Numbered from the stretch's first letter, positions 25,801-56,322 are shown. The stretch: DNA of 64,000 nucleotides from a virus (IMGVR_UViG_3300032167_007646), one strand, 5' to 3'. Made by a program: numbers and translations. The notes: generated by a model not told the origin, from the letters alone.

Positions 25801-26534
25801 TCACCACCCCCTGCTTTATCTTGTGTTGCTACCATTTTATCACCATCAACTGGTCCATCATAAACTATTTTACCATCTGTTATTCTCATAATTCTTTCTG
25901 TTTGAGCTGCAATACTATTATCATGAGTTATTAAAATAATAGTGTTACCCTCTCTATGTAACTGTTTTAAAAATTCCAATACATCTTTACCTGTCTTTGA
26001 ATCTAATGCACCTGTTGGTTCATCCGCAAGAATTACAGAAGGACTACCTGCTAAAGCCCTTGCAATAGAAACACGCTGTTGCTGACCACCTGATAACTGC
26101 GATGGTTTATTTTTAGCTTTATCACCTAACCCTACTTTTTCTAATGCCGCCATAGCCTTTTGTTTTTGTTCAGATTTAGATAACCCTGCATACAATAAAG
26201 GTAATGCTACATTATTCAAAACATTTAATTTAGGTAATAAATTATACTGCTGAAAAATAAAACCTAACATTTTATTTCTTACTTCTGCGAGTTCATTACG
26301 AGAATACTTTGATATATTTTTACCATTTAAATAATATTCACCACTTGTTGGTACATCTAAACAACCTATAATATTCATACAAGTAGATTTACCACTACCT
26401 GATTGACCTACTATTGCAACAAATTCACCCTCATATATCTTAAATGAAACACCATCCAAAGCATGAACAGTTTCATCACCCATTTTATATATCTTATATA
26501 TATCCTTAAATTCTACTAAAGGAGTTCTTTCCAT
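25797..26534 (-). CDS. ABC transporter ATP-binding protein (MacB/LolD-like)
   Basis: Walker A 'GQSGSGKST', ABC signature 'LSGGQQQRVSIARAL', Walker B 'ILADEPTGALD'. Confidence 0.85.
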   Translation of the reverse strand: MERTPLVEFKDIYKIYKMGDETVHALDGVSFKIYEGEFVAIVGQSGSGKSTCMNIIGCLDVPTSGEYYLNGKNISKYSRNELAEVRNKMLGFIFQQYNLLPKLNVLNNVALPLLYAGLSKSEQKQKAMAALEKVGLGDKAKNKPSQLSGGQQQRVSIARALAGSPSVILADEPTGALDSKTGKDVLEFLKQLHREGNTIILITHDNSIAAQTERIMRITDGKIVYDGPVDGDKMVATQDKAGGGE

Positions 26535-26548
26535 AAATTATTCCTCCT

Positions 26549-28168
26549 TTATCTTCCCATTCCTGCTGGTGGACCACTCATATTGCCTGTTGGTCTTTCA
26601 CCTGACTTCATTGAATCTTCCATTTGTTCCATCATTTCCATTATACCATTTGTTGCTTGTATTTCACGACCACGAACTATATCTCCTTCTGACAATCCTG
26701 AAACAATTTGAATATTTACGCCATCTGTTACTCCTGTTTCAACAGATACAGTTTTATAACCCTCTGGTGCTGTATCTTTTTCATCTTCTTTATTACCTTT
26801 AACAAAAACTGTATTTCCCCTATTTAAACACTCTGAAGGTATAACTAATACATTATCTGCTTTTTCTATTACTATATCTGCGTCTATATTCATACCTGGC
26901 ATTAATTTATCATCAAAGTCTTTTATTCTAACAGTCACAGGATATACAGTAACTCCATTTGAAGAAGTTCCTTTTACATTTATCTTTTCTACATAACCTT
27001 TATATTCTTTACCTACAACTGCGTCTGCTATAATTATAACTTCTTGTCCTACTTCTATTTTTGCAATATCCAATTCATCTACTTCCATATCAAATTTTAA
27101 GCTTGATAAATCATATATTACTGCCAAAGTATTAGCACCTTTTGTATTATCTAAGGAATCCCCAACTTTTTTCTGTTTATCTATAACAGTTCCTGTTATA
27201 GGCGCTTTTATAGTATAATCATCCAAAGATTCTAATGTTCTTTCTCTATTTAATTCTGTTTCTCTATAAGAAATTTCTGTTGTTCTCTTTTGGTCCATTA
27301 AAGTTTCATTTTCTAATTTCAAAACCACAGAATTTTTATCTATCCATTTATTATTTTCTATATTTAATTCTATTATCTCTCCTGCTGCTTTTGAAGTAAT
27401 AACTTCTTCAACAAAATATTCAAAACTACCACTACTATTACAAGCAATATCATTTATAATTGCAGTAGCTGTATCACCTTTTAATACTGAACCTGGATTT
27501 TTTATCTCTATTTCTACATCTTTTACTCTCATATAAGACGCTTTTGCATAAGACTGTGAATTTATAGAAACAACCTTGCCAATTATTTCATTATCTGAAT
27601 TATCTAAATAAACTAAAGCTTCTTGACCTACATAAAAACCATCAACATCTCTTTCATTAAAAGGTATTTTTATTAACATACGAGTATCATCATATATATT
27701 TGCTATAACCTGACCATTATTTATTGTATCACCTATTTCGACATTAACATTTGTGGTTATACCTGAATATTCTGTTTTCAATGTCAAGTCTTCTATGGAA
27801 TCATTAATATTTTCTAATGACATATTAGCCTTCTCCATATTTAATCCTGAAGATTCTATTGATTTTGCTACATCACTACTATCTATTTCAAACATTACTG
27901 CGTCTTCTTTTACTACATCACCCTCTTCAAAATATGTAGCAAGTATATCACCTGATACAGAAGTTGTTATAGTATATTGGTCATTTGGCTGTATTGTCGC
28001 CTTACCTGATATTGTACTATCTATTGTTCCTAAACTTACTGTATAATCATTTACAATTACATTTGAATTATTATCTTTATTACTTCCTAATAATTTTAAC
28101 CCTATTAATACTATTGCAATTACTATTATAATTATAAAAATTTTCTTAAACTTCTTTAATATTTTCAT
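26549..28168 (-). CDS. HlyD-family periplasmic adaptor / efflux membrane-fusion protein
   Basis: N-terminal TM anchor, a long coiled-coil/beta-barrel region, and a Gly/Pro/Met-rich C-terminus. Confidence 0.65.
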   Translation of the reverse strand: MKILKKFKKIFIIIIVIAIVLIGLKLLGSNKDNNSNVIVNDYTVSLGTIDSTISGKATIQPNDQYTITTSVSGDILATYFEEGDVVKEDAVMFEIDSSDVAKSIESSGLNMEKANMSLENINDSIEDLTLKTEYSGITTNVNVEIGDTINNGQVIANIYDDTRMLIKIPFNERDVDGFYVGQEALVYLDNSDNEIIGKVVSINSQSYAKASYMRVKDVEIEIKNPGSVLKGDTATAIINDIACNSSGSFEYFVEEVITSKAAGEIIELNIENNKWIDKNSVVLKLENETLMDQKRTTEISYRETELNRERTLESLDDYTIKAPITGTVIDKQKKVGDSLDNTKGANTLAVIYDLSSLKFDMEVDELDIAKIEVGQEVIIIADAVVGKEYKGYVEKINVKGTSSNGVTVYPVTVRIKDFDDKLMPGMNIDADIVIEKADNVLVIPSECLNRGNTVFVKGNKEDEKDTAPEGYKTVSVETGVTDGVNIQIVSGLSEGDIVRGREIQATNGIMEMMEQMEDSMKSGERPTGNMSGPPAGMGR

Positions 28169-31112: not shown

Positions 31113-32681
31113 TTATTTTCTATTTTTAGATGTCTTTTTTGTATCAGATTCAGTATTTGATACTTCTTCTTCTACTTTATTTTCAATTGTAACACCTTTT
31201 AAACCCTCTGTTATTGCACCTGCAATATTAGAACCTATTTTTTCTTCTTTACTTTCATTAGCATCCATTAACATTTTTGTACCTAAAGCACCTGCTAATA
31301 CAGATTTAATATCTATACCTAAACCTGCTGTTAATCCCTCTGAAATTTGAGAAGTTGATTTAGTAATATCCTCAACTAATTTAGAAGTATTACCCTCACC
31401 ATACATAGTAATCTTATCAATATTAGCCAAAGGTTTAGCAACATGCTCAGCAATTTCAGGTAATATCTTAAAGTACATTTCAAGAACAGCAGCCTCTTTC
31501 ATCTTAGCCATAGCTTCTGCTTTCTTTTCAGTTGCTTCAGCTTCAGCAATACCTTTTGCTCTTACTGCTTCTGCTTCTGCAAGACCTCTTGCTCTAATAC
31601 CCTCTGCTTCCTGTTCTGCTTCATACTTACGAGCATCTGCATTTATCCTTAATGCTTCAGCCTCACGCTCTACTTCAAACTTTTTAGCCTCTGCATCTTT
31701 TTGACGCTTATACAATTCAACTTCAGCCATTTTTTCTTGTTTATACTTTTCAGCGTCAGCCTGCTTACGAATTGTAGCACTCAATTCTTGTTCTTTAACT
31801 TCTGCTTCCTTTTTCTTCAATTCAACAGCTTTTTCCTGTGCAGCAATATTCGCATTTGCTGTAGTTATTTCTATTGTTTTACGCTGTTCCTCTTTCTGAA
31901 TTTCATAAGCAGCATCAGCTTCAGCCTGCTTAACATCAGATTCTCTTTTTAGTTCAGCCTGTTTTATCTTCAACTGATTTTGCTTTTCTGCAATATCTGT
32001 ATCTGAATTAACCTGTGCTTCATTAGCCATTTTCTTTGCCTCTGCTTCCGCAATAGCAACATCTCTTTCTGCCATAGCCTTTGCAATTGAAGCATCTTTT
32101 TGAATTTGAGACATATTATCCTGACCTAATGCTACAATCAAACCCTTTTCATCATCAATTCTCTGAATATTACAAGAAATAATTTCAATACCTAAAGCAT
32201 TCATATCTTTCTGTGCTTTTTCTTGAACTTCATCACCAAACTTCTTTCTATCAGTACAAAGTTCTTTCAATTTAACAGTACCTATAATTTCTCTCATATT
32301 ACCTTGTAAAGAATCAGTTAAAGCACTAACTATTTCATCTTCTCTCATATTCAAGAAGTTTTTCATAGCCAATTTAATACCCTCATCATCTGTCTTTACC
32401 CTAATTTTAGCAACAGCATCTATATCTACACCTATAAAATCTAATGTAGGAATATAACCATTTGTCTTAATATCTACAGTTATTTGCTTAACAATAAGAT
32501 TATCCTTTCTTTCTAAAAAAGGAATCTTAATACCTGCTCTACCTATCAATATACGAGGTTCTTTTCTATAACCTGATATAATATAAGCTTTATCAGGTGG
32601 AGCTTTAACATAACCTGACATCAAAATGATTAAAAAGAATATAACCACTGCCACTACTGGAATTATAATTGATAAATCCAT
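31113..32681 (-). CDS. Flotillin-like SPFH/band-7 protein (FloT/YuaG-like)
   Basis: N-terminal TM, SPFH domain, and a long Ala/Glu-rich 'EA-repeat' coiled coil. Confidence 0.75.
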   Translation of the reverse strand: MDLSIIIPVVAVVIFFLIILMSGYVKAPPDKAYIISGYRKEPRILIGRAGIKIPFLERKDNLIVKQITVDIKTNGYIPTLDFIGVDIDAVAKIRVKTDDEGIKLAMKNFLNMREDEIVSALTDSLQGNMREIIGTVKLKELCTDRKKFGDEVQEKAQKDMNALGIEIISCNIQRIDDEKGLIVALGQDNMSQIQKDASIAKAMAERDVAIAEAEAKKMANEAQVNSDTDIAEKQNQLKIKQAELKRESDVKQAEADAAYEIQKEEQRKTIEITTANANIAAQEKAVELKKKEAEVKEQELSATIRKQADAEKYKQEKMAEVELYKRQKDAEAKKFEVEREAEALRINADARKYEAEQEAEGIRARGLAEAEAVRAKGIAEAEATEKKAEAMAKMKEAAVLEMYFKILPEIAEHVAKPLANIDKITMYGEGNTSKLVEDITKSTSQISEGLTAGLGIDIKSVLAGALGTKMLMDANESKEEKIGSNIAGAITEGLKGVTIENKVEEEVSNTESDTKKTSKNRK

Positions 32682-32803: not shown

Positions 32804-32848
32804 ACAAAAAAAAGATGTGTTAAACATAAAGTTTAACACATCTTTTTT
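32804..32848. terminator. Bidirectional intrinsic terminator ending the operon
   Basis: A-run, then hairpin GATGTGTTAAAC-ataaa-GTTTAACACATC, then a T-run. Confidence 0.6.
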
Positions 32849-32850
32849 AT

Positions 32851-33232
32851 TTAATCACAATTACAATCGCAATCACAATCACAATCGCAATCACAAGACA
32901 TATCACAACTAAAATCCCCTGTATCACAAACACAATCATCTTGAATTGTAGAATTATTTATTTCATCTTTAACCATATTTTCTATTTCACTATGTAATAA
33001 AACAGATTTACCATATTTTCTACTACCTAAAATAGATACTTCTCTCTCATCAAATTTTTTTCTTTATATCCTCTGATAATCCATATTTTCTACTACCTAA
33101 AATACTTGACCTGTTTCTTCCCTGATAAGCAAAACTATTACGAGCAACTTCCATACCTTTTTTAAAGCCCTCATGATAACCCTCTTGATAACCATCATGC
33201 CAAGATTTTATTTCTTTATTCTTATCTTTCAT
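32851..33232 (-). pseudogene. Frameshifted gene: a 60-aa ORF (33050-33232) followed in the +1 frame by an ORF ending in a 41-aa Cys/Asp-repeat tail (MVKDE...CDCDCDCDCDCNCD). Removing one base from a T7/A7 run at 33055-33061 fuses them.
   Basis: Hand translation. ORF1 ends '...ILGSRKYGLSEDIKKKI*'. The downstream frame reads '...FDEREVSILGSRKYGKSVLLHSEIENMVKDEINNSTIQDDCVCDTGDFSCDMSCDCDCDCDCDCNCD*'. A 24-bp direct repeat (33017-33040 and 33087-33110) encodes ILGSRKYG twice. Confidence 0.4.
32855..32900 (-). repeat. Imperfect hexanucleotide repeat (plus strand ACAATC[A/G])n encoding (Cys-Asp)n
   Basis: Plus strand reads 'acaattacaatcgcaatcacaatcacaatcgcaatcacaag'. Seen directly in the sequence. 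Confidence 0.8.
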
Positions 33233-35417: not shown

Positions 35418-36206
35418 TTAACCCATATGATTACAAGCAAAATTTGATAAAGCATAAAGTTTTTCTACAACAAAATCAGGAATATAACCACTTTCACTAT
35501 GCACACAAATTTTACCTAAAACTTCTATATTTATATTATCAACAGTTAATTTACCACTTGTAATACCATCTCTCAAAGCCTTACACTCTTTACTATTCTT
35601 TTTATAGGAACAATAATCACAAGAAAAGTTATCTACTTCTTTATCATCACCCTCTAAAAGACAATCAGTACAACTAAAATACCATCCTATAAGACCTTTA
35701 CAATCCCAAGAATTGCAAACATATTCTTCTGAACAATCTGTTACCAAATCTATTACTTTTTCATCTGTAGAAAAATCTACCATATAAAAAGGTGCCATAC
35801 GAACAGGTCCTTCATTTGATTTCTTATGTTCTTCAAACTTTCTCTTCCAAAACTCTACATAATCTGCATAAGTTTCACATTCTAACCAATCAATATTATA
35901 ATCAAAATAATCCCAAGTTTCAAAACCAAAATCTTTCTTCAATTTCTTATTGATTTTATCATGCTCTTCATATAATTCTTTTGTATATTTTCCATCCTTA
36001 ATATACTTAAAAGAACTTGATTTTTCATCATAATAAACACCATAATCAGATGCTACTTTTAACAATTTTTCTTTATTCTCATAATATTCTCTATAATATT
36101 CTTTAATCATATTAAAAAGAATATCTTTTGTTTTATCATCATCTTTTTTACCAATTATGAAACTACTACTCGAACTATTTGTAACATAATCCATCCTAAT
36201 TTTCAT
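35418..36206 (-). CDS. DFVTNSSSSSF-tag family protein, paralog 4 (Cys-rich; C-terminus 'ACNHMG')
   Basis: N-terminus 'MKIRMDYVTNSSSSSFIIG'. Full-length paralog of 37348-38133. Confidence 0.5.
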   Translation of the reverse strand: MKIRMDYVTNSSSSSFIIGKKDDDKTKDILFNMIKEYYREYYENKEKLLKVASDYGVYYDEKSSSFKYIKDGKYTKELYEEHDKINKKLKKDFGFETWDYFDYNIDWLECETYADYVEFWKRKFEEHKKSNEGPVRMAPFYMVDFSTDEKVIDLVTDCSEEYVCNSWDCKGLIGWYFSCTDCLLEGDDKEVDNFSCDYCSYKKNSKECKALRDGITSGKLTVDNINIEVLGKICVHSESGYIPDFVVEKLYALSNFACNHMG

Positions 36207-36207
36207 A

Positions 36208-36654
36208 TCAATCTTCCTCCAATATTACAAAATATTCTTTATTCATTTCTGCTAAACCTTTTATCATCTCTGTCAAAGTATCATCTGAATAATCTATATA
36301 CTTAAATAAAATTTTATATCCATCATGAACATACTCAATTATCTTTTCATAATCTTCCTTACAATAAGGAGAATTGATAAATAAAGTTTCTAATGTATCT
36401 TGACTACTACCATATCTACCTAAAAAATACTTATTAAAAGATTCTTCATCTTTACAAAGAACACCCTCTGTTGTTTCATCATAAGAAGAACCTGCTGAAA
36501 ATAGAATTTTATCTACCATTTCATTGATATTTCTCAAAAAAGGATAACGCTTCAAGACATCTTCATCCAAATTTGGAAAATCTTTATATGCAATAACAAA
36601 ACTACTACTTGAACTATTTGTTACAAAATCTGTTCTTAACTTCATTATAACCAC
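36208..36654 (-). CDS. DFVTNSSSSSF-tag family protein, paralog 3 (short)
   Basis: N-terminus 'MKLRTDFVTNSSSSSFVIA'. Shares only the tag with the other paralogs. Confidence 0.5.
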   Translation of the reverse strand: MVIMKLRTDFVTNSSSSSFVIAYKDFPNLDEDVLKRYPFLRNINEMVDKILFSAGSSYDETTEGVLCKDEESFNKYFLGRYGSSQDTLETLFINSPYCKEDYEKIIEYVHDGYKILFKYIDYSDDTLTEMIKGLAEMNKEYFVILEED

Positions 36655-36655
36655 C

Positions 36656-37336
36656 TTACCTTTCTACTTCTTCAAAATACATATTCAACCATTCTAAAGG
36701 TATTTCTATCCATTGGAAAATATTTTGATGATATAATTCTAAATGAACTTCACCATCTAATGCACTATCAACATCTTCATTCAATTCATATAAACTATCC
36801 TTATTTACTGCAATTTGGTCATTGCTACAATCACAATTATCCAAATAAAATGACTTAATACATCTATATAATTTAGGTTCTTCTACTTCAACCATTTTAT
36901 TTGAAACATATTCTGTATTTTCTTTAATATCAAATATATGAGCCAAAGGTAATTTTGTCTTATAAAATGCACCCTCACCTATATATCTCATATCATCAGA
37001 TTGTTCAAAATGAAAAAGATTTTCACATTCTGCAAAGGCATATTTACCAATATAATGTAAATCACTACCACCTTTATTAAGATGTACTGACCATAAATTT
37101 TTAAATCCCCTAAAAGCATTATCACAAATAACTCTTACACTATCTGGTAACACTACTTCTCTTACAGTTTCTTCATGTAAAATACCTTTTTCATCTTTAA
37201 GCATATCACAAAGAACTTCTCTTGAAACAACTTCAATACCATCTGGAAAATATACTATATTTGTTCCAACCTCTGGACTTACTTCAAATTCGATATAACC
37301 ATATAATTGTTTCTTATAATCCACAAACGACACCAC
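36656..37336 (-). CDS. Leucine-rich-repeat protein (BspA-type LRR_5-like)
   Basis: Repeats 'IGKYAFAECENL' and 'IGEGAFYKTKL'. Confidence 0.5.
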   Translation of the reverse strand: MVSFVDYKKQLYGYIEFEVSPEVGTNIVYFPDGIEVVSREVLCDMLKDEKGILHEETVREVVLPDSVRVICDNAFRGFKNLWSVHLNKGGSDLHYIGKYAFAECENLFHFEQSDDMRYIGEGAFYKTKLPLAHIFDIKENTEYVSNKMVEVEEPKLYRCIKSFYLDNCDCSNDQIAVNKDSLYELNEDVDSALDGEVHLELYHQNIFQWIEIPLEWLNMYFEEVER

Positions 37337-37347
37337 CTAACATTTAT

Positions 37348-38133
37348 TTAACCCATATGATTGCAATAAACATTAGATTTTGCACCTAATTTTTCTACAA
37401 CATATTCAGGTATATAACCACAATAACTTATCACACCTATTTTACCTAATACCTTGCAAACAAGTGTCTCTTTTGTATATTTACCTTCTTTTTCATTTGA
37501 CTTAAACTTTTCACAAGCATCTTTATTATGATTAAAAGGACATTCCCCACATTCTCCAATATAATTTCCTTCTAAATCATAATCCTGCTCTTCTGATGGG
37601 AAAAGAACACAAGGTAAATACCAATCTATCAATTCTTGATAATCAAAGCTATCTTTGAATAACTTACCATCTGGCATTTCTCTATCTTTTTCAAAATCAA
37701 TTATATCAAAAGGTCTCATAGAAAAACCATGAGCATCCTTTGAATCTTTTCCACCAAAAAATTCTACAAAATCATCATAAGTTTCACATTTTAACCACTC
37801 AAAATTATGATAAAAATATAAATCACAAAGTTCTACACCAAAATCTTTTTTCAAACGAGCATTTATTTCTTTACGCTCTGCTCTAAGTTCATCAGTAAGT
37901 TTACCAAACTTAATATATGTAAAACACTCTCTTTCTACATCCCAACAAACACCATAATCTTTTGCAACAGGCATAAGTCTTTTCTTTATATCTAAAAACT
38001 CTTTATAAATATGTCTTACAAGTTCATATACAGTATTTTTATCAATACCATCACCATATTTACCTATAATAAAACTACTACTTGAGCTATTTGTAACAAA
38101 ATCTTTTCTAAATTTCATACCTACTACCACCAA
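37348..38133 (-). CDS. DFVTNSSSSSF-tag family protein, paralog 2 (Cys-rich; C-terminus 'YCNHMG')
   Basis: N-terminus 'MKFRKDFVTNSSSSSFIIG'. Aligns along its full length with 35418-36206. Confidence 0.5.
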   Translation of the reverse strand: MVVVGMKFRKDFVTNSSSSSFIIGKYGDGIDKNTVYELVRHIYKEFLDIKKRLMPVAKDYGVCWDVERECFTYIKFGKLTDELRAERKEINARLKKDFGVELCDLYFYHNFEWLKCETYDDFVEFFGGKDSKDAHGFSMRPFDIIDFEKDREMPDGKLFKDSFDYQELIDWYLPCVLFPSEEQDYDLEGNYIGECGECPFNHNKDACEKFKSNEKEGKYTKETLVCKVLGKIGVISYCGYIPEYVVEKLGAKSNVYCNHMG

Positions 38134-38829
38134 TCATTCTAATTCTAATGTTCTTGTATGTTTACATTTACCTGTTTTCTTACAATATGTAAAAGTTTCT
38201 GTGTCATTACTACTTCTACCACCTGCATACTCTTCAAAATCTTCCTCAGTAACTTCTTCCACAGAAATACCTTTTTCTGCTGCTATATTTTTATAAATCT
38301 TCTTTAATGTTTTCTTATCATAACAGTCAGGATACATTCTTGTATCACTATCTCCACCCCAACCATAATCATTATACTCTATCTCTACATCACCAATATC
38401 ATTAAATATTTCTTTACTTCTCAATAATATTTCTTTTGCAATCTGACTATTTTTAGGCAAAGGATTCTCTTCTTCAAAATCAATTTTAGGAATACAACCC
38501 TTTCTACTAATAATAGCATATTCTGTATCAAATAAAGATATAAAAGTATTTAAAGCCTCTCTTAAATTTTTAGGTGCTTCATAGATATAACCATCTTGTT
38601 CCGTATATGTAACAATATCGCCATCTACATTTAAATTATTTAAGGCATAAGTATAACCATTAAAATCCTCTTCTGATAAATCTACATCCTTATCATATAA
38701 TTTAGGACAAACTTCTAACTGAAATCTTTTTATAATCTCTGAAAGAGTTTTACTCTCAATTTGAACAGTAATAAAACTACTACTAGAACTGTTTGTAACA
38801 AAATCACTTCTAAATTTCACTTTATACAC
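38134..38829 (-). CDS. DFVTNSSSSSF-tag family protein, paralog 1
   Basis: N-terminus 'MYKVKFRSDFVTNSSSSSFITV'. The rest of the protein is unrelated to the other paralogs. Confidence 0.5.
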   Translation of the reverse strand: MYKVKFRSDFVTNSSSSSFITVQIESKTLSEIIKRFQLEVCPKLYDKDVDLSEEDFNGYTYALNNLNVDGDIVTYTEQDGYIYEAPKNLREALNTFISLFDTEYAIISRKGCIPKIDFEEENPLPKNSQIAKEILLRSKEIFNDIGDVEIEYNDYGWGGDSDTRMYPDCYDKKTLKKIYKNIAAEKGISVEEVTEEDFEEYAGGRSSNDTETFTYCKKTGKCKHTRTLELE

Positions 38830-38833
38830 TCCT

Positions 38834-39073
38834 TTAATTCATATCTTCACGAGCAATATTATATCCTATTTGAAGAAGTTTTGCTTTCTTTGTTGCCGCT
38901 AACTTGCTTGTAGCGTCAGCTATTTTATAAAAAGGAACTTGCATAGGATTCTTTTCATAAACCACAAAATTATCTATTCCCTCTTGTTTAACCATAAAAT
39001 TATTAAAATGAATAGTATCATCTATTTGTTTCATTTTAGGATTATAAATTTCTTCAAACTTCATATAACTCAC
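38834..39073 (-). CDS. Hypothetical protein
   Basis: 79-aa ORF in the operon. Confidence 0.3.
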   Translation of the reverse strand: MSYMKFEEIYNPKMKQIDDTIHFNNFMVKQEGIDNFVVYEKNPMQVPFYKIADATSKLAATKKAKLLQIGYNIAREDMN

Positions 39074-39082
39074 TCCAATAAA

Positions 39083-39427
39083 TTATTCTATTATCCCTAA
39101 AATTGCAAAATCATAAGTAGAAAACTTAATAGACTTACCATTACCAAAGAACACAAATATAGTTTTATTATTTGTAACCTCAAGGGATTTAGAATCAGCA
39201 AAAGCTTTATCTATTTCTTCCGCTTCTGAATAAAACTTTCTAATATCCCTTTCTTGTTCATTTTCATCATCAGTCTTAAATACAAAACCTAACTGAATAT
39301 AAGCAGAAAAAACAAAATCACCCATTAGTTCTTTCATATAATTAGTAATATCATAACGATATTCTGTAAAATCCTTAAAGTCTTTATTGCAAAACTTATT
39401 CTTATATTTTTCCAACAAAATCACCAA
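39083..39427 (-). CDS. Hypothetical protein
   Basis: 114-aa ORF in the operon. Confidence 0.3.
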   Translation of the reverse strand: MVILLEKYKNKFCNKDFKDFTEYRYDITNYMKELMGDFVFSAYIQLGFVFKTDDENEQERDIRKFYSEAEEIDKAFADSKSLEVTNNKTIFVFFGNGKSIKFSTYDFAILGIIE

Positions 39428-39431
39428 CCTA

Positions 39432-39701
39432 TTATTTTACTTTTTTTATTGCACACTTTTCAGTACTTACTACAAGTTTTTCTCCATCTTTTACAAACAA
39501 AGTAATTGCACCGTCATCAATATCATATGTACTTACCTCAAACTGCTTAACAGCACCATTTGGCTGTTCTACTGTTGCAATATAACTTGTATTTGCAATC
39601 TTAAACATCATAAGAACCATTAGAGTTGCTATAACTACTGCAATACCAACTGCTATAAAATCAATACCTTTTACAATTTCTACAAATCTTTTCTTCAACA
39701 T
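39432..39701 (-). CDS. Small membrane-anchored protein
   Basis: 89-aa ORF with one TM helix. Lies directly downstream of the SPASM gene. Confidence 0.35.
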   Translation of the reverse strand: MLKKRFVEIVKGIDFIAVGIAVVIATLMVLMMFKIANTSYIATVEQPNGAVKQFEVSTYDIDDGAITLFVKDGEKLVVSTEKCAIKKVK

Positions 39702-39706
39702 AACTA

Positions 39707-41026
39707 TTAACCTCCATAGAATTCTCTTTCTTTATTATCACAAAGAACAATATCATTTACCAAAGGACAACCACCCATACAAAGTTCTCTCTTTGGACAT
39801 CCCTTACAACTATATCTTAAACAATCTCTAAACTTATTAAATTCTGAACTTTCCCAAGCATCCTTTATAGTTACTTTATCAGAAAGTTTAACAGCATACT
39901 TTTGGTCCTGATTATCAAAAGAACAAGGCAAAGCAGTCATATCTGCTGCAATATACATAGAATATCTACTACCCTCACAGGTATCAACACTACAAGTATC
40001 AATATGCTTACTCCAACGAACAACTGCAGGAATAGAACAACTATCAAAACCAATCTTAAATGGTGTTCTATGATTATCTACCAATTCAAAGAACTCTTTC
40101 ACACGAGGGTCATCAAGTCTTAAAACGTCATCATAATCACCCAAACCAACTGGTTTATGAAGGAGAAACACAACAGCATTTATACCTTTTGGAAAACCAT
40201 TATATTTAACTCTCAAAATTGCCTCATCTATTGTTGAATTACTCAATACATAATGAATATTTGTCTTTACACCCGCGTCTAACAACATCTTAATTGCTTT
40301 CATTGTATAATTAGGCTTCTGAACCTCATTATACACTTTATAAAATTCATATTCTTGGGGTTCTTCACTATAATACATATGATGAACTTCATCCCAAGCA
40401 TAATCTAATTCATTTATTTTATAAGCAGGTTCATCCCACTTACATTCTTCATTCAGACCACCAAGAGTAAATAATACAGGAATATCATCTTCTGATTTAT
40501 AAACTTTCTTTTTATCCTCACTATGTACCCTTCTTAGTGCTAAATCTGGTATCATATCCAAACGAGAGTATTGCGAGACTGCCACAGCACCACAATACTT
40601 TTTACAAAGAGCAGCCTTTTCAGGTGTCATACCAAGACCACTTGTTGTAAAATTAGGTATAATACCATTATCACGAGTGTATTTTAAAACTTCTTCAAAA
40701 TTCTCATGCATATCTGGGTCACCACAACCACCTAATGCTATTTCAAACAATCTTTCTTTAGACCAATCTATAATTTTTTTATAATCTTCTAACTTCATAT
40801 TAGGTTTATCTGAATGTAATCCATCCTGATAACACTTAATACCTGCTTTCATACAAAGACCACTTTTTCCATGAGCACAATTTCCCATTAAACCAACATC
40901 TATGAGGTGAGGATACTCTGCCATAAATGGGTCTTCTTCTACATCAAAAGCCCTAATATATTCTCCTGTCTTATCATTAAACATTGTTGTAAAATTATAT
41001 TCACCATCTCTAATTACTCTAATCAC
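39707..41026 (-). CDS. SPASM-domain protein, probable radical-SAM enzyme with a non-canonical N-terminal Cys triad (C-x8-C-x6-C); GTG start
   Basis: C-terminal SPASM '...CSVDTCEGS...C...CLRYSCKGCPKRELCMGGCP'. Gly-rich 'ALGGCGDPDMH'. N-terminal 'GNCAHGKSGLCMKAGIKCY' replaces CxxxCxxC. RBS AGGTGG sits 7 nt before the GTG. Confidence 0.55.
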   Translation of the reverse strand: MIRVIRDGEYNFTTMFNDKTGEYIRAFDVEEDPFMAEYPHLIDVGLMGNCAHGKSGLCMKAGIKCYQDGLHSDKPNMKLEDYKKIIDWSKERLFEIALGGCGDPDMHENFEEVLKYTRDNGIIPNFTTSGLGMTPEKAALCKKYCGAVAVSQYSRLDMIPDLALRRVHSEDKKKVYKSEDDIPVLFTLGGLNEECKWDEPAYKINELDYAWDEVHHMYYSEEPQEYEFYKVYNEVQKPNYTMKAIKMLLDAGVKTNIHYVLSNSTIDEAILRVKYNGFPKGINAVVFLLHKPVGLGDYDDVLRLDDPRVKEFFELVDNHRTPFKIGFDSCSIPAVVRWSKHIDTCSVDTCEGSRYSMYIAADMTALPCSFDNQDQKYAVKLSDKVTIKDAWESSEFNKFRDCLRYSCKGCPKRELCMGGCPLVNDIVLCDNKEREFYGG

Positions 41027-41048
41027 TTAAACCACCTATCACCTTTCA

Positions 41049-41192
41049 TTATATTGACATAACTATTAACATTACTAATAAACCTATAACTACAACACCT
41101 ACTATAACCAAAAATATAAACATACAAATGTCATCTCCATCAAATCCAGAGAAAAAATCTTTAATTATATTTTTTAACTTTTCAAACCACAA
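41049..41192 (-). CDS. Small membrane peptide, paralog a (MWFEKLKNIIKDFF...; TTG start)
   Basis: Hand translation: amphipathic N-terminus followed by a C-terminal TM helix. RBS AGGAG. Missing from the track because it is shorter than 60 aa. Confidence 0.35.
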   Translation of the reverse strand: MWFEKLKNIIKDFFSGFDGDDICMFIFLVIVGVVVIGLLVMLIVMSI

Positions 41193-41203
41193 AGAACTCA
41201 CTC

Positions 41204-41380
41204 CTATATTACACCTGTAAAAATAGATATAAAAAAACTTACTACTACTACAATAAGAACTATAATTAAAACTATCATAAAATAGTCATCTATGTCTGCA
41301 AATGCAAAAAAATCACAAACTTCATCTAAAATATCACTTATAAACTCTTTAATTCTATTCTTTATCTTATCAAACCACAT
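41204..41380 (-). CDS. Small membrane peptide, paralog b (MWFDKIKNRIKEFISD...)
   Basis: Hand translation. RBS AGGTGG. Same architecture as paralog a. Confidence 0.4.
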   Translation of the reverse strand: MWFDKIKNRIKEFISDILDEVCDFFAFADIDDYFMIVLIIVLIVVVVSFFISIFTGVI

Positions 41381-41387
41381 AATCCAC

Positions 41388-41528
41388 CTACAACATTTCC
41401 AACAATATGTTTATTAGCAACATCGCAAAGAAAGTAAATAAAACTAAATAAAAACCAAAAGAAAATTCAGATATATTAAAATAATAAATAGACCTTTTCA
41501 ACTTCTTTAATTTTAAATCTAATTTCAT
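41388..41528 (-). CDS. Small membrane peptide, paralog c (MKLDLKLKKLKRS...)
   Basis: Hand translation. RBS GGCGGTGG. First gene after the promoter at 41559-41587. Confidence 0.3.
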   Translation of the reverse strand: MKLDLKLKKLKRSIYYFNISEFSFGFYLVLFTFFAMLLINILLEML

Positions 41529-41558
41529 AAAACCACCGCCATACTTTTAATCTATTCT

Positions 41559-41587
41559 ATTATAACCTAAAAACAACTAATTGTCAA
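41559..41587 (-). promoter_or_regulatory. Sigma-A-type promoter TTGACA-N17-TATAAT driving the ~8.7-kb operon
   Basis: Minus strand reads TTGACA at 41582-41587 and TATAAT at 41559-41564 with a 17-bp spacer. Confidence 0.6.
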
Positions 41588-41597
41588 TAAGCACAAA

Positions 41598-41632
41598 TAA
41601 AAAATAGATTAGTTTTTCAACTAATCTATCTT
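41598..41632 (-). terminator. Intrinsic terminator after the 41637-42161 gene
   Basis: Hairpin ATAGATTAGTT/AACTAATCTAT followed by a U-run on the minus strand. Confidence 0.5.
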
Positions 41633-41636
41633 TAAA

Positions 41637-42161
41637 TTACATTTTTTCTAACTGTGTTGCTTTTAATTCTAAATGTTTCATAAAATTTTCAGTTGTTTTT
41701 TTACCCTCTATATCTGAAAACTCTAAATTCATCATACATTCTCTATATTTATTTTCCATACCTTTTATAAGAGTCTTTCGTATATCAGATAACATTCTGT
41801 ATGTATTTTCATTAGTCATACCATCACCTATCATACAAAAACCAATTTCACTTGCTAATTGTAAAATTCTAAACCCGCTATCTGTCTTCTCTAATTTATA
41901 AGTATAACTACCCTCACGCACTAGACCTAAACAATAATTTATCAATTTTACAAAATTATTCAAATGTTCATCAGTTAAATTACCATTCTTTATTTCAACT
42001 GTATTTATTTGCCCTACTTTCATACGTTGTATTTTATTCTTTACAGCAGATTTACTATGATTTCTAAATTTTCTATGTATATCTTCTACTGTCAATCCTT
42101 CTTCCAAAAATTTCAATAATTTTAACTCTTCTGATTTAGTCCAAATTGCCATCATAAACAC
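41637..42161 (-). CDS. Hypothetical protein with an N-terminal Myb/SANT-like HTH
   Basis: 'WTKSEELKLLKFLEEGLTVEDIHRKF...' resembles the repeats of the 50119-52923 helicase. Confidence 0.35.
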   Translation of the reverse strand: MFMMAIWTKSEELKLLKFLEEGLTVEDIHRKFRNHSKSAVKNKIQRMKVGQINTVEIKNGNLTDEHLNNFVKLINYCLGLVREGSYTYKLEKTDSGFRILQLASEIGFCMIGDGMTNENTYRMLSDIRKTLIKGMENKYRECMMNLEFSDIEGKKTTENFMKHLELKATQLEKM

Positions 42162-53872: not shown

Positions 53873-54463
53873 CTATTCTATATTAAATTTATCTATTTCT
53901 TCATCACTCATATCTAAATACCAATCTAAACACATAGAACATACTGTAAAACATTTACCCGTTATATTATCCATTACAGCCAATATTCTTTGTGGTTTAT
54001 ACTCAAATATCTCTTCATCTAATTCATTAGTACATTTATGACTTAAACCTTCTACAGATTTTGTTTCAAAAATCTCTATACAATATTCATCATTTGTAAT
54101 AGTACAATACCAATTCTCTTTTATTAATTTTAACAAGTGAAGATAATCTTTATTCCCCATTACAAAACCATAATGTTCCTCAATATACTTTAATACTGTT
54201 TCAAACATTTCTGTTCTACTCAATATATTTGAACTGTCTTTTCTGGCTATCATAACTTTACCATTTTCATCCTTAAACTTTAAGGACATTTTACGCATTT
54301 TTCTACCATCCACAGCAAATATATCTTCTAAATATTTACCTTTATACTCTATTTTAAGTTCTTGATGAACTTTTTTACCCCATTTACTTATTATACAAAC
54401 AAAATTATTATTACAATATTTATCAAATAATTTCAACGATTTTATATTATCATATGCTTCCAT
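53873..54463 (-). CDS. Hypothetical protein (Cys/His-containing)
   Basis: 196-aa ORF. Promoter TTGACT-N17-TATAAT at 54493-54521. Confidence 0.35.
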   Translation of the reverse strand: MEAYDNIKSLKLFDKYCNNNFVCIISKWGKKVHQELKIEYKGKYLEDIFAVDGRKMRKMSLKFKDENGKVMIARKDSSNILSRTEMFETVLKYIEEHYGFVMGNKDYLHLLKLIKENWYCTITNDEYCIEIFETKSVEGLSHKCTNELDEEIFEYKPQRILAVMDNITGKCFTVCSMCLDWYLDMSDEEIDKFNIE

Positions 54464-54539
54464 TATACCACCTCATATATTATCATGTTTATATTATACC
54501 AAATTACTTTAATTAAGTCAATAACTAAAAATGAAAAAG

Positions 54540-54602
54540 ATTGGACTATTTTAAAATAATAATCCAATCTTTTTCTGTGCATAACACGCCAAATTGCCAA
54601 CT
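54540..54602 (-). ncRNA. Candidate small RNA unit E: promoter 54610-54638, terminator hairpin AGATTGGA...TCCAATCT plus U-run
   Basis: Consensus promoter, then ~65 nt with no ORF, then an intrinsic terminator. Confidence 0.3.
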
Positions 54603-54654
54603 TGGATATATTATAACATACTTCTTTATAAAAGTCAATAGGTAATTAATTTTT

Positions 54655-54798
54655 TATTTAAAAGTAATAATCCATTGTATTTTCTAAATACAATGGACTA
54701 TCTGGCTTTTGCTTATTTTTAAATAATATAGATATTTTTGATTGCACTATAACAATCAAAGGAGTGATTTTATAAGTAAGAACAATATACCTTACCTA
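54655..54798 (-). ncRNA. Candidate small RNA unit D: promoter 54806-54834, terminator TCCATTGTATT-tagaaa-AATACAATGGA
   Basis: Promoter, ~140 nt with no ORF, terminator. Confidence 0.3.
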
Positions 54799-54879
54799 CA
54801 AATATATAATAACACAAAATAAATATATTGTCAACACCTATGCAAAAATATTTTTTAAAAGAAAATAACCCACTCAACT

Positions 54880-54996
54880 CCCCCAAAGTCAAGTAGGCTA
54901 CTTCCCTATATATAATTATAAAATATGGAGGGTTTCTGGTAAAAACCCTACCAAGAAGGAGACGCATAGGCAGGAAAACGAATAAAACCTACCCAG
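54880..54996 (-). ncRNA. Candidate small RNA unit C: promoter 55004-55032
   Basis: Promoter then ~115 nt with hairpins (GGGTTT...AAACCC). The terminator is less clean. Confidence 0.25.
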
Positions 54997-55039
54997 CAAT
55001 TATATTATAACATTTTTATGAATATTTGTCAATAAGGAG

Positions 55040-55149
55040 AGAGAAAAAATTTAAAAAGAAATAATCCTACAACCCATAAGGAAGCAGGATTATCTCAACA
55101 AAGGATATTTATTATGATTTATATAGTCTTTGAACTCACTCTCTGACTA
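55040..55149 (-). ncRNA. Candidate small RNA unit B: promoter 55157-55185, terminator AATCCTGC...GTAGGATT plus U-run
   Basis: Promoter, ~110 nt with no ORF, terminator. Confidence 0.3.
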
Positions 55150-55204
55150 TAAATATATTATAACAAAATATTTTTTATTTGTCAATAACCACATCAAAAT
55201 TTCT

Positions 55205-55370
55205 TTTTAAAAGAAAGGAGGGGAGTGCTATGTCCAAACACTCCCAATGGAAAAATTATGTTTCTTAAAAATCAAAAGAAACAAAGCAATAGCAAAGATG
55301 AAAGAGGTTAAAGTGGAAAAACGAAAAACCACTAAATTACAGCAAGGGGGATAGCTGTCTTTCACCTTAC
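55205..55370 (-). ncRNA. Candidate small RNA unit A: promoter 55378-55406, terminator GGGAGTG...CACTCCC plus U-rich tail
   Basis: Promoter, ~165 nt with no convincing ORF, terminator. Confidence 0.3.
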
Positions 55371-55424
55371 ATTTATTATTATAACACACATTTCAACTTT
55401 TGTCAACCATTTTTTTTATTTTAA

Positions 55425-55500
55425 TAAAAAGAATTTTGGTGAGTTTAAAAACTCACCAAAATTCTTGTAAATAAGGATGTTTCCCTATTTGTAGTTTCTA
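55425..55500 (-). ncRNA. Candidate small RNA unit G: promoter 55508-55536, terminator TTTTGGTGAGTTT...AACTCACCAAAA
   Basis: Promoter, ~75 nt, terminator. Confidence 0.3.
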
Positions 55501-55571
55501 TATTACTATTATACCATTATTATATTCATTTGTCAATAAACAAACTTAATTTTTATAAACTAAAATATAAA

Positions 55572-55598
55572 GGGTGGGTTCGTAAAACGAACCCACCC
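55572..55598 (-). terminator. GC-rich perfect-hairpin terminator (family member 1)
   Basis: GGGTGGGTTCG-taaaa-CGAACCCACCC, downstream of the BI-1-family gene. Confidence 0.6.
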
Positions 55599-55612
55599 TA
55601 AATTATGTAATA

Positions 55613-56281
55613 TTAGTCATCAGACTTACCAAAGATTTCAAGAAGTCTAATAAAGAGATTTATAATATCCAAATAAATATCAAGTGCAGAATCTACAGCA
55701 TTATCTACAGTCTTAGGATAACTCTGTGCTTTATACCAGTCATAACCAATATATAATGAGAAAATAACTACAAAAATCCAATTAAATATTGGTGCTGCAA
55801 TACCAAAGAGCATACAAATTAACTCTGCAATAATACCAAAAAGTAACGAGAAAAACAATGTTCTACCAAGTCCTGCAAAGAATTTAGGAAAAACAGTTGT
55901 AGAAATCATCATTACAGCAGTAATACCACCTGTTGCTAAGAATGCAGATTTAATATCCACACTTGAATATCCTTGCAAAGCAACACTCAACACTGCACCA
56001 ACAGGAACAACCACAAGATTATAACCTATAAAACTGATAATAGGATTACTTGACTTTACAGCCATAATAATACCAATGATACATGAAATAAAATACCCAA
56101 TAATTAAAGTCCAGGGATTCATAGCCATAAATACATCAGAATAAAAATGGACTATTAGAACATTTACAATGAAACCCCAAAGGAGAACAAGACCTATAAT
56201 ACCATTATAAACATTTCCATTTAAGGTGTCTTTTAGACCTGAACTCATACGAGCCATTTTTCTCTCTTTACCATTAAACAT
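55613..56281 (-). CDS. Bax-inhibitor-1/YccA (TMBIM) family membrane protein
   Basis: Seven TM helices. C-terminal 'DSALDIYLDIINLFIRLLEIF' is typical of the family. Confidence 0.6.
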   Translation of the reverse strand: MFNGKERKMARMSSGLKDTLNGNVYNGIIGLVLLWGFIVNVLIVHFYSDVFMAMNPWTLIIGYFISCIIGIIMAVKSSNPIISFIGYNLVVVPVGAVLSVALQGYSSVDIKSAFLATGGITAVMMISTTVFPKFFAGLGRTLFFSLLFGIIAELICMLFGIAAPIFNWIFVVIFSLYIGYDWYKAQSYPKTVDNAVDSALDIYLDIINLFIRLLEIFGKSDD

Positions 56282-56322
56282 TTAACATTACCACCTTTTT
56301 ATTTTTTCAAGATTTGATTATA

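What the first reader, a model, noticed from the sequence alone, without database searches (positions are those of the whole stretch)
41049..41528. Three tandem paralogous ~50-aa membrane peptides heading the operon (unannotated small ORFs)
Hand translation gives 'MWFEKLKNIIKDFFSGFDGDDICMFIFLVIVGVVVIGLLVMLIVMSI', 'MWFDKIKNRIKEFISDILDEVCDFFAFADIDDYFMIVLIIVLIVVVVSFFISIFTGVI' and 'MKLDLKLKKLKRSIYYFNISEFSFGFYLVLFTFFAMLLINILLEML'. Each has its own RBS. They sit immediately 5' of the SPASM gene, where RiPP precursors usually lie. They look more like amphipathic-helix plus TM peptides than classical core peptides. Possible roles are precursor, holin/antiholin-like peptide, or membrane scaffold for the downstream enzyme.
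Basis: seen in the sequence. Interest (0 to 1): 0.5.

Follow-up and report, generated by a model that had tools for sequence, protein, structure and literature searches.

The report
Three small phage membrane proteins
Three real but tiny genes for membrane-anchored peptides open an operon in a large phage-like element. They are a narrow lineage-specific add-on of unknown role, not the raw material of the neighbouring radical-SAM enzyme, whose conserved partners lie downstream.

Summary
The three ORFs exist exactly as described, on the minus strand: sORF-A 41528-41388, sORF-B 41380-41204, sORF-C 41192-41049. Each has a Shine-Dalgarno site. They follow a terminator hairpin and a perfect TTGACA-17-TATAAT promoter.

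They are real genes. All three stay open in diverged relatives. dN/dS is about 0.14-0.19 for A and B. C evolves fast but keeps its frame through a 12-nt indel. Three such ORFs in 480 nt arose in none of 5000 shuffles.

Only B and C are paralogs; A merely shares their build. Each has an N-terminal amphipathic helix and a C-terminal transmembrane helix with almost no tail.

The RiPP-precursor idea fails. The family occurs only in one narrow lineage (8 hits among 1.84 billion proteins). It is absent next to about 200 other rSAM or tag loci. The core has no conserved modifiable residue.

The enzyme's conserved partners are downstream proteins that begin with an invariant tag, MK-x-R-x-DFVTNSSSSSF. 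There are four in this operon, and the tag is widespread in large phages.

Best reading: early-expressed, tail-anchored accessory membrane proteins of a large gut phage-like element. This is an ordinary kind in a new family, with function untested.

The parts
41596..41636 (-). Intrinsic-terminator-like hairpin (15-bp A/U-rich stem, GAAA loop, T-run) that closes the upstream unit (the 174-aa gene at 41637-42161).
   Evidence: Folds at -15 kcal/mol, z = -5.46, with 0 of 200 shuffles folding as well. Conserved in all related loci although the upstream genes differ.
41559..41587 (-). Sigma-70/sigma-A consensus promoter TTGACA-17 nt-TATAAT.
   Evidence: 12/12 match. It is one of 15 perfect copies, all on the coding strand and none on the other strand. 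Invariant hexamers in relatives.
41388..41528 (-). sORF-A, 46 aa: MKLDLKLKKLKRSIYYFNISEFSFGFYLVLFTFFAMLLINILLEML. Basic amphipathic N-terminus (+6/-2) followed by a C-terminal TM helix.
   Evidence: SD duplex -11.8 kcal/mol. Orthologues in L086-L092 and L098. In the N-terminal 21 codons versus L098, dN is 0.147 and dS 1.08. No Pfam, PHROG or Rfam hit.
41204..41380 (-). sORF-B, 58 aa: MWFDKIKNRIKEFISDILDEVCDFFAFADIDDYFMIVLIIVLIVVVVSFFISIFTGVI. Acidic amphipathic N-helix followed by a C-terminal TM helix.
   Evidence: dN/dS 0.17-0.19. N-terminal part: dN 0.02-0.04 against dS 0.23-0.56. Seven homologous clusters at 74-97% identity. AF2 gives two helices, pLDDT 69.
41049..41192 (-). sORF-C, 47 aa from TTG (alternative GTG start at 41201 gives 50 aa): MWFEKLKNIIKDFFSGFDGDDICMFIFLVIVGVVVIGLLVMLIVMSI. 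Shorter paralog of B.
   Evidence: B/C profile hit at 4e-17. Orthologues are 41-60% identical yet stay open with an in-frame 12-nt indel and an ATG at the same start codon. dN/dS 0.6-0.85.
39707..41026 (-). Radical-SAM/SPASM protein, 439 aa, with the cluster cysteines spaced C50-x7-C58-x6-C65.
   Evidence: Pfam SPASM 2e-5 and TIGR04085 above its cutoff; the Radical_SAM match is below its cutoff. The three Cys are invariant in 28 homologues. More than 5000 homologues.
39432..39701 (-). 89-aa bitopic membrane protein with an N-terminal TM anchor and a small beta-rich C-terminal domain. Restricted to the same lineage as the peptides.
   Evidence: Translation. Found in 11 close loci and in no distant locus.
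38134..38829 (-). Tagged protein 1 (231 aa), beginning ..MYKVKFRSDFVTNSSSSSF.
37348..38133 (-). Tagged protein 2 (261-aa ORF; probable start at the internal MKFRKDFVTNSSSSSF).
36208..36654 (-). Tagged protein 3 (148-aa ORF; MKLRTDFVTNSSSSSF). Belongs to a ~143-aa family of 45 members.
35418..36206 (-). Tagged protein 4 (262 aa; MKIRMDYVTNSSSSSF).

Best explanation
The three ORFs are genuine, translated small genes. They encode single-pass membrane proteins anchored by a C-terminal TM helix (0-11 residues beyond it), each with a 22-35-residue amphipathic N-terminal helix that stays in the cytoplasm.

They are the first cistrons of a transcription unit driven by a perfect host-type sigma-70 promoter. 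The unit lies in a large (27% GC), phage-like element of gut Firmicutes, so they are probably made early and abundantly by the host RNA polymerase.

Selection acts on the cytoplasmic N-helices, while the TM segments drift as generic anchors. The working part is therefore the N-helix held at the inner face of the membrane. A is basic, and B and C are acidic paralogs, so a hetero-oligomer is plausible.

I commit to the reading that they are lineage-specific accessory 'host-membrane' proteins of the element. Candidate roles are takeover, exclusion or organisation of a membrane site. On this reading they are neither substrates nor obligatory partners of the downstream rSAM/SPASM enzyme.

Shown: ORF reality, purifying selection, architecture, promoter and SD sites, narrow distribution, and lack of linkage to the rSAM family. 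Inferred: N-in topology, early timing, oligomerisation, and the physiological target.
For: Coding status. The ORFs and SD sites are present. Three TM ORFs in 480 nt appeared in 0 of 5000 shuffles. All three ORFs are retained in L086-L092 and L098 despite divergence. dN/dS is 0.14-0.17 for A and 0.17-0.19 for B; for A's N-terminal part versus L098 it is 0.14 at dS about 1. C keeps its frame across a 12-nt indel.

Architecture. Conservation is concentrated in the N-helices.

Promoter. A 12/12 consensus follows a terminator. There are 15 perfect copies on the coding strand and 0 on the other. Window genes include thymidine and thymidylate kinases, methyltransferases, and a helicase closest to those of SPO1-like phages.

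Independence from the rSAM. No A or B/C homologue occurs in 80 genome loci, in L093-L096 (rSAM 69-76% identical) or in 120 viral stretches. Small TM ORFs upstream of the rSAM gene occur in 3 of 71 loci against 1.6% at control positions. In L097 a C-like peptide precedes an unrelated gene. The rSAM's conserved neighbours are the tagged proteins, present in 45 of 52 loci with 69 of 71 on the same strand.
Against: There is no expression or localisation data. The family is tiny and confined to one lineage: 8 hits among 1.84 billion representatives. sORF-C is close to neutral (dN/dS 0.6-0.85). sORF-A has few substitutions among the closest relatives, and its region is unusually conserved at the DNA level.

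In 11 of 12 related loci the peptides do sit directly in front of the rSAM gene with coupling-type spacing, so a lineage-specific functional link cannot be excluded. Early timing rests only on promoter sequence. Whether the element is a phage or a plasmid is not settled, because the window holds no structural genes.
Confidence: 0.5

Rival explanations
1. Lineage-specific membrane scaffold. The three peptides, perhaps together with the 89-aa bitopic protein after the enzyme, tether the rSAM/SPASM enzyme or its tagged client proteins to the membrane in this clade only.
For: Same operon, with 22 nt between sORF-C and the rSAM start. Co-inherited with the rSAM gene in 11 of 12 related loci. The 89-aa membrane protein directly after the rSAM gene is restricted to the same lineage.
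Against: The rSAM-tag system works without them everywhere else: 75 genome or metagenome loci and 120 viral stretches. Small TM ORFs are not enriched upstream of the rSAM gene. L097 has a C-like peptide ahead of another gene. The rSAM protein shows no membrane-binding feature that I detected.
Confidence: 0.15
2. RiPP precursors. The conserved N-terminal part is a leader recognised by the SPASM enzyme, and the variable hydrophobic part is the core that gets modified.
For: Position immediately 5' of an rSAM/SPASM gene. Conserved N-terminus with a hypervariable C-terminus, as in leader/core peptides.
Against: The peptides are not co-conserved with the enzyme family. No Cys, Ser, Thr, Lys or Trp is conserved in the 'core'. 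B's Cys22 is V or Y in relatives, and the C-terminal NCTV motif is absent from the window copy. The 'core' is a 19-25-residue aliphatic TM helix. Neither the enzyme nor its neighbours give a PqqD/RRE hit. No protease or exporter is adjacent. The enzyme has another invariant candidate recognition motif on downstream proteins.
Confidence: 0.04
3. Lysis-timing proteins. An XhlA/gp24.1-like C-terminally anchored holin component with a paralogous antiholin.
For: XhlA and SPP1 gp24.1 have a single predicted TM helix at the C-terminus and act with a second holin (PMC6316719). B and C form a paralogous pair. An M23 peptidase with endolysin-type PHROG hits lies 5.5 kb upstream, and a YkuD transpeptidase lies further down the co-directional gene run.
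Against: There is no charged C-terminal tail and no adjacent endolysin or 2-TM partner. No holin or XhlA hit appears in Pfam or PHROGs even at E <= 10. The promoter is of the host-consensus type expected for early genes (inference). A more holin-like 72-aa ORF with two TM helices and a charged tail sits at 57034-57252.
Confidence: 0.08
4. Membrane-damaging small toxins of the type-I-toxin, addiction or bacteriocin-like kind.
For: Small, very hydrophobic peptides on a mobile element. Type I toxins of Gram-positives are membrane peptides of similar size (PMC10730256).
Against: The layout is opposite to Fst/BsrG-type toxins, which have an N-terminal TM helix and a charged C-tail. B and C are net acidic, unlike cationic leaderless bacteriocins. 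They are operonic first cistrons behind a strong constitutive-type promoter. No antisense RNA family or structure was detected. Selection is on the soluble helix, not on the TM helix.
Confidence: 0.08
5. Chance ORFs in T-rich DNA, or a 5' leader with regulatory mini-ORFs whose products have no function. This applies chiefly to sORF-A and sORF-C.
For: The coding strand here is 46% T, which favours hydrophobic codons. A was never called by gene finders. C's dN/dS is near 1. The terminator-promoter-sORF-A block is almost invariant at the DNA level among close relatives.
Against: 0 of 5000 shuffles gave three such ORFs. A's orthologue in L098 differs at 48 of 138 nt yet keeps length, frame and N-terminal sequence (dN/dS 0.14). 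C keeps its frame through a 12-nt indel and keeps its N-terminal motif at 41% identity. All three have SD sites.
Confidence: 0.05

Closest known systems
XhlA (PBSX) / SPP1 gp24.1: C-terminally anchored holin-associated proteins
   Same: Small phage proteins with a soluble N-terminal helical part and a single TM helix at the extreme C-terminus. They act together with other small membrane proteins (PMC6316719).
   Different: No sequence or profile similarity: Pfam and PHROGs give nothing at E <= 10. The peptides here are shorter (46-58 aa versus about 80-90 aa, the latter from my own knowledge). They are not next to an endolysin or a 2-TM holin. They sit behind an early-type promoter.
Small early membrane proteins of Firmicute phages, such as SPO1 gp56 (division inhibitor) and phi29 p1 (membrane-associated replication organiser). 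Recalled from memory, not tested.
   Same: Short bitopic or membrane-associated proteins made from strong host-consensus early promoters in phages. They act through a short soluble segment held at the membrane. The window's helicase is closest to those of SPO1-like phages, and it carries 15 consensus promoters.
   Different: No homology was shown, and the target and timing are untested. The literature search for the SPO1 example found nothing usable in the held library.
RiPP precursor peptides of rSAM/SPASM maturases (sactipeptides, ranthipeptides, streptide, PQQ, mycofactocin)
   Same: Short ORFs immediately 5' of a SPASM-domain gene, with a conserved N-terminal part and a variable C-terminal part.
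   Different: Not co-conserved with the enzyme. No conserved modifiable residues. The 'core' is a TM helix. No RRE, protease or exporter is present. The enzyme family has another conserved partner.
Type I toxin peptides of Gram-positive mobile elements (Fst, BsrG, TxpA)
   Same: Hydrophobic single-TM peptides of 30-60 aa encoded on mobile elements (PMC10730256).
   Different: Reverse domain order. No charged C-tail. Operonic rather than a stand-alone toxin/antisense-RNA locus. B and C are net acidic.

Membership tests
RiPP precursor of an rSAM/SPASM maturase | Precursor gene co-occurs with the maturase across the enzyme's family. | tested here: not met
   No A or B/C homologue in 80 genome loci or in L093-L096 (rSAM 37-76% identical), nor in 120 viral stretches of which 68 hold the rSAM gene.
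RiPP precursor of an rSAM/SPASM maturase | Conserved residues in the core that can be cross-linked or modified (Cys, Lys/Trp, Glu/Tyr, C-terminal Val-Tyr and the like). | tested here: not met
   The only invariant columns are M1, W2, N8, K11, F24, F25 and D29, all N-terminal. Cys22 of B is replaced by V or Y in relatives.
RiPP precursor of an rSAM/SPASM maturase | Leader-recognition element (PqqD-like RRE) in the enzyme or in a neighbour. | tested here: not met
   No PqqD/RRE hit in Pfam or NCBIfam for the rSAM protein, the 89-aa protein or the 114-aa protein. The 89-aa neighbour is a membrane-anchored beta-rich protein.
RiPP precursor of an rSAM/SPASM maturase | Enzyme-dependent mass change of the peptide. 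| not testable with these tools
   Needs co-expression and mass spectrometry.
Phage holin (classes I-III, XhlA family) | At least one TM helix in a small protein. | tested here: met
   One C-terminal TM helix in each peptide, Kyte-Doolittle 19-mer maxima 2.4-3.5.
Phage holin (classes I-III, XhlA family) | Hydrophilic, highly charged C-terminal domain. | tested here: not met
   Only 0-11 uncharged residues follow the TM helix.
Phage holin (classes I-III, XhlA family) | Adjacent to an endolysin in a lysis cassette. | tested here: not met
   The neighbours are a 174-aa D5-like protein and the rSAM gene. The M23 peptidase is 5.5 kb away behind its own promoter.
Phage holin (classes I-III, XhlA family) | Profile match to a holin or XhlA family. 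| tested here: not met
   No such hit in Pfam or PHROGs at E <= 10.
Type I toxin-antitoxin toxin | Stand-alone toxin ORF with an overlapping or adjacent antisense RNA; N-terminal TM helix and charged C-tail. | tested here: not met
   First cistrons of a long operon. The domain order is reversed. No Rfam hit. The presence of an uncatalogued antisense RNA was not tested.
Leaderless / class II bacteriocin | Cationic amphipathic peptide without a long aliphatic TM stretch; nearby immunity and exporter genes. | tested here: not met
   B has net charge -5 and C -2. Each has a 19-25-residue aliphatic stretch. The MacB/HlyD/ABC genes are 13-16 kb away in another unit.
Bona fide small protein-coding gene (general criteria) | Start codon with SD site, ORF kept in diverged relatives, dN/dS below 1, frame-preserving indels. 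| tested here: met
   The case is weakest for sORF-C (dN/dS 0.6-0.85).
Bona fide small protein-coding gene (general criteria) | Direct evidence of translation. | not testable with these tools
   No ribosome profiling or proteomics is available.

The most novel reading that the evidence does not exclude
The trio, together with the lineage-specific 89-aa membrane protein, is a membrane docking module for an undescribed phage system. That system consists of an atypical rSAM/SPASM enzyme (C-x7-C-x6-C) and a set of diverse proteins that all carry the invariant N-terminal tag MK-x-R-x-DFVTNSSSSSF. In this clade the module would place the enzyme or its tagged clients at the host membrane. In the extreme version, the TM peptides would themselves be rSAM-modified membrane-embedded products.
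Probability: 0.1. Interest if true: 0.6.

Novelty: new member of a known kind. Interest (0 to 1): 0.3.

Why it matters
The three peptides add one more unannotated family to the large pool of small phage membrane proteins. They give a clean test case: a strong promoter, three coupled cistrons, and clear selection on the cytoplasmic helix.

The practical lesson concerns genome mining. Short ORFs 5' of a SPASM gene are not automatically RiPP precursors. Here comparative genomics pointed the enzyme's partnership to a different and much more striking set of genes downstream.

That neighbouring rSAM-plus-N-terminal-tag system is widespread in large gut phages. It gave no hit in the libraries and papers I could search. 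It is the part of this locus most worth a separate follow-up.

Tried and rejected
Megablast of 39-44 kb against GenBank phages found no match.

The search for related loci with the single rSAM protein in IMG/VR found nothing. This was a false negative of exact peptide patterns, because rSAM homologues were later found in 68 IMG/VR stretches.

- The IMG/VR scan had 163 pattern matches, none confirmed.
- The JGI metagenome scan had 360 pattern matches, none confirmed.
- The HMM search of 1.84 billion representatives gave 8 hits. Seven are 40-65-aa peptides of the same lineage. The eighth is a 1046-aa protein matching only profile positions 6-27 repeatedly (E = 1.7e-5), which I did not examine and regard as probably spurious.

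An exact scan for the conserved terminator sequence in JGI metagenomes found 0 matches.

Pfam, PHROGs, NCBIfam and PADLOC gave nothing for the peptides or the tagged proteins.

Rfam gave nothing, either on the whole window at gathering thresholds or on 40900-41750 at E <= 1, so an RNA-element reading of the conserved sORF-A region has no support. ARAGORN found no tRNAs.

The pseudogene-fragment idea is rejected. A and C share a frame but B does not. Each peptide has its own start and SD site. The arrangement is conserved, and no longer protein contains the B/C profile.

PDB sequence searches found nothing meaningful, either for the rSAM protein or for a 22-sequence profile of a tagged-protein family.

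Single-sequence AF2 of the 148-aa tagged protein gave pLDDT 55, too poor for a fold search, so none was run.

Literature searches for the tag string, for SPASM enzymes in phages, and for SPO1 host-takeover membrane proteins returned nothing relevant in the held library.

Full report
OBSERVATION. All genes in the window run on the minus strand. Reading that strand from 41660 to 40980 gives, in order:
- the stop of a 174-aa gene;
- a hairpin with a T-run (41636-41596; -15 kcal/mol, z = -5.5);
- a perfect TTGACA-17-TATAAT promoter (41587-41559);
- 22 nt later, the 439-aa rSAM/SPASM gene (41026-39707).

The gaps between cistrons are 7, 11 and 22 nt, and the stop codons of A and B overlap the next SD site. 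Anti-SD duplex energies are -11.8, -7.8 and -9.0 kcal/mol, against a window background mean of -3.85 and a 5th percentile of -8.7. The local strand is 46% T, which favours hydrophobic codons. I therefore tested chance directly: 0 of 5000 shuffles of the 480 nt gave three non-overlapping TM-containing ORFs of at least 40 codons, and no other 480-nt window on either strand did.

ARE THEY GENES? I retrieved related contigs through the exact rSAM protein, through sORF-B homologues and through an HMM search.

L086-L092 and L098 keep the hairpin, the promoter and all three ORFs, although the upstream genes differ.

Nei-Gojobori estimates are as follows:
- B has dN/dS 0.17-0.19.
- A has dN/dS 0.14-0.17 among close relatives. 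Against L098, the N-terminal 21 codons give dN 0.147 and dS 1.08, with 13 nucleotide changes and only 5 conservative residue changes.
- The rSAM gene has dN/dS 0.06-0.13 for comparison.
- C has dN/dS 0.6-0.85, close to neutral. It nevertheless stays open at 41-60% amino-acid identity. It has a 12-nt in-frame indel and keeps the N-terminal motif.

I conclude that all three are protein-coding, with C the least constrained.

ANATOMY. B and C are paralogs. They share MW[FL][DE][KR][LI]xNxIK[DE]F, then an acidic patch, then a TM helix, and B carries an 11-residue insertion. The B/C profile finds only these two ORFs in the window. A is not detectably related to them (hhalign probability 3.6%).

All three share one build. 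The N-terminal 22-35 residues have a high helical hydrophobic moment. A is +6/-2, B is +4/-9 and C is +3/-5. A 19-25-residue aliphatic stretch then runs almost to the C-terminus, leaving 0-11 uncharged residues. AF2 with the small alignment gives helices 2-27 and 30-57 for B at modest confidence (pLDDT 69).

Conservation sits in the N-helix. For B, dN is 0.02-0.04 in the N-terminal part and 0.10-0.35 in the TM part. An N-in, tail-anchored topology follows from the positive-inside rule and the lack of any C-terminal tail. This is inference.

DISTRIBUTION. The family is tiny. sORF-B has six homologous clusters. The B/C profile finds eleven in 5.8 billion sequences. A full HMM scan of 1.84 billion representatives finds eight. 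All convincing members are 40-65-aa peptides of one lineage. There is no Pfam or PHROG family and no Rfam match in the region.

RELATION TO THE rSAM GENE. The enzyme family is large: more than 5000 homologues, mostly in gut Clostridia and Coriobacteriia MAGs, with more distant members in Agrobacterium plasmids and T4-like Klebsiella phages.
- None of 80 genome loci (37-60% identity), nor L093-L096 (69-76% identity), carries an A or B/C homologue.
- Small TM ORFs of any kind end within 300 nt upstream of the rSAM gene in 3 of 71 loci, against 1.6% at control positions.
- In L097 a C-like peptide with a different N-terminal part follows the same kind of promoter but precedes an unrelated gene.

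The variable part of the peptides holds no conserved modifiable residue. No RRE was detected. The RiPP-precursor reading is therefore not supported.

WHAT THE rSAM GENE IS LINKED TO INSTEAD. Four downstream genes of the same co-directional run start with M-K-x-R-x-D-[FY]-V-T-N-S-S-S-S-S-[FY]. They lie at 38134-38829, 37348-38133, 36208-36654 and 35418-36206.

The same 16-residue tag heads one to four ORFs in 73 of 98 loci. Among 52 distant loci with at least 1.5 kb on both sides, 45 have at least one tagged ORF. In 25 of them it starts within 200 nt of the rSAM stop, and 69 of 71 tagged ORFs are on the rSAM strand.

An Agrobacterium plasmid has MKIKLDFVSNSSSTSF... directly upstream of its rSAM gene. 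That enzyme has a canonical CxxxCxxC motif, whereas the window clade has C-x7-C-x6-C.

Those stretches hold 247 distinct tagged ORFs, and 68 of the 120 also hold the rSAM gene. None holds an A or B/C homologue.

The 358 tagged proteins of at least 80 aa fall into 58 unrelated body clusters. I found no match in Pfam, NCBIfam or PADLOC, and none in PDB sequences for the one family I searched. No paper in the held library contains the motif string.

This identifies the likely clients or partners of the enzyme. It also shows that the three peptides are a clade-specific addition at the head of that module.

CONTEXT. The window has 27.5% GC. It encodes thymidine and thymidylate kinases, DNA methyltransferases, helicases (the best annotated relatives are in SPO1-like phages and human faecal phage contigs), DnaD-like loaders and a D5-like protein. 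It also encodes M23 and YkuD cell-wall enzymes, flotillin, an Na+/H+ exchanger, a MacB/HlyD/ABC set and an SLH protein. It has no tRNA and no structural genes.

It carries 15 perfect TTGACA-17-TATAAT promoters, all on the coding strand. Counting up to one mismatch, there are 24 on the coding strand and 3 on the other, against about 4 expected per strand. rSAM homologues of 73-76% identity sit on 170-395-kb contigs. I read this as an early or replication region of a large phage-like element. Phage versus plasmid is not settled.

MECHANISM. My best-supported account has these steps:
1. Host sigma-70/sigma-A RNA polymerase starts at 41587-41559.
2. A, B and C are translated, probably coupled, from the 5' end of the message.
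3. Each inserts with its C-terminal helix in the membrane and its conserved amphipathic helix on the cytoplasmic face.
4. The basic A and the acidic B and C may assemble into one complex.
5. The helices act on a membrane-proximal host or element function.

The promoter, SD sites, coding status, architecture and selection pattern are shown. Topology, timing, assembly and target are inferred.

The rivals, in order of my confidence, are:
- a clade-specific scaffold for the rSAM-tag module (0.15);
- an XhlA-like lysis component (0.08);
- a membrane toxin (0.08);
- non-functional ORFs (0.05);
- RiPP precursors (0.04).

COMPARISON AND NOVELTY. The nearest known architecture is XhlA/SPP1 gp24.1, with a single C-terminal TM helix (PMC6316719). 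Membership fails on sequence, C-tail, neighbourhood and promoter type. Type I toxins have the reverse layout (PMC10730256).

The trio is a new small family within a familiar kind, namely small phage or mobile-element membrane proteins. On its own it deserves modest interest. The adjacent rSAM-plus-tag system deserves a separate, higher-priority look.

Noticed in passing
window 35418-41026 (-); loci L006-L096, L100, L101-L220: An apparently undescribed two-part system. The rSAM/SPASM enzyme is accompanied by one to six diverse proteins (38-1062 aa, 58 body clusters) that all begin with the near-invariant tag M-K-x-R-x-D-[FY]-V-T-N-S-S-S-S-S-[FY]. The window has four. The tag is found in 45 of 52 distant genome loci, on an Agrobacterium plasmid, and in at least 120 IMG/VR stretches on viral contigs up to 504 kb. 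No hit in Pfam, NCBIfam, PADLOC, PDB sequences (one family searched) or the held literature.
   Followed up: partly
window 39707-41026 (-), residues 50-65: The rSAM cluster motif is C-x7-C-x6-C, invariant in 28 homologues, instead of CxxxCxxC. The Agrobacterium homologue keeps the canonical CDKGCVFC. The Pfam Radical_SAM match is below its gathering score, and there is a weak hit to a 'pseudo-SAM/SPASM' model.
   Followed up: partly
whole window, minus strand; densest at 54493-56738: There are 15 perfect TTGACA-17-TATAAT promoters, all on the coding strand and none on the other. Nine copies (perfect or one mismatch) are spaced about 120-390 nt apart between 54493 and 56738. Seven of them lie in the 54463-55613 stretch, which has no convincing ORF. 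They might drive small RNAs or tiny peptides. Rfam and ARAGORN find nothing.
   Followed up: partly
window 57034-57252, 61529-61699, 61708-61800, 32847-32939 (all -): Further unannotated small TM ORFs. A 72-aa ORF has two TM helices and a charged C-tail, the most holin-like in the window. There is also a 56-aa 2-TM ORF and two 30-aa single-TM ORFs. PHROGs gave no hit for the first two.
   Followed up: partly
window 41388-41640 versus L086-L092: The terminator-promoter-sORF-A block is about 96-100% identical at the DNA level between contigs whose upstream genes differ and whose sORF-B and sORF-C regions are only 64-90% identical. It looks like a mosaic or recombination boundary at the promoter cassette.
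   Followed up: partly
L088 5374-7310 and L089 5374-7310: In two relatives the rSAM gene is called as three ORFs of 165, 236 and 243 aa instead of one of 439 aa. This suggests an inserted element, such as an intron, intein or homing endonuclease, or a disruption.
   Followed up: no
window 39432-39701 (-): An 89-aa protein directly after the rSAM gene has an N-terminal TM anchor and a small beta-rich domain. Like the three peptides, it is restricted to the close lineage.
   Followed up: partly
L012 2670-3929 (Clostridiales bacterium CCNA10): The rSAM homologue there is flanked by an adenylosuccinate-synthetase-like gene, which may be PurZ-like (my speculation). It is followed by LemA and four tagged proteins.
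   Followed up: no
window 11649-12875, 22368-28168, 31113-32681; L095: The element carries unusual membrane cargo: an Na+/H+ exchanger, an SLH-domain protein, MacB/ABC/HlyD genes and a flotillin. An rSAM homologue of 73% identity lies on a 395-kb contig next to a type I-E Cas gene set.
   Followed up: no
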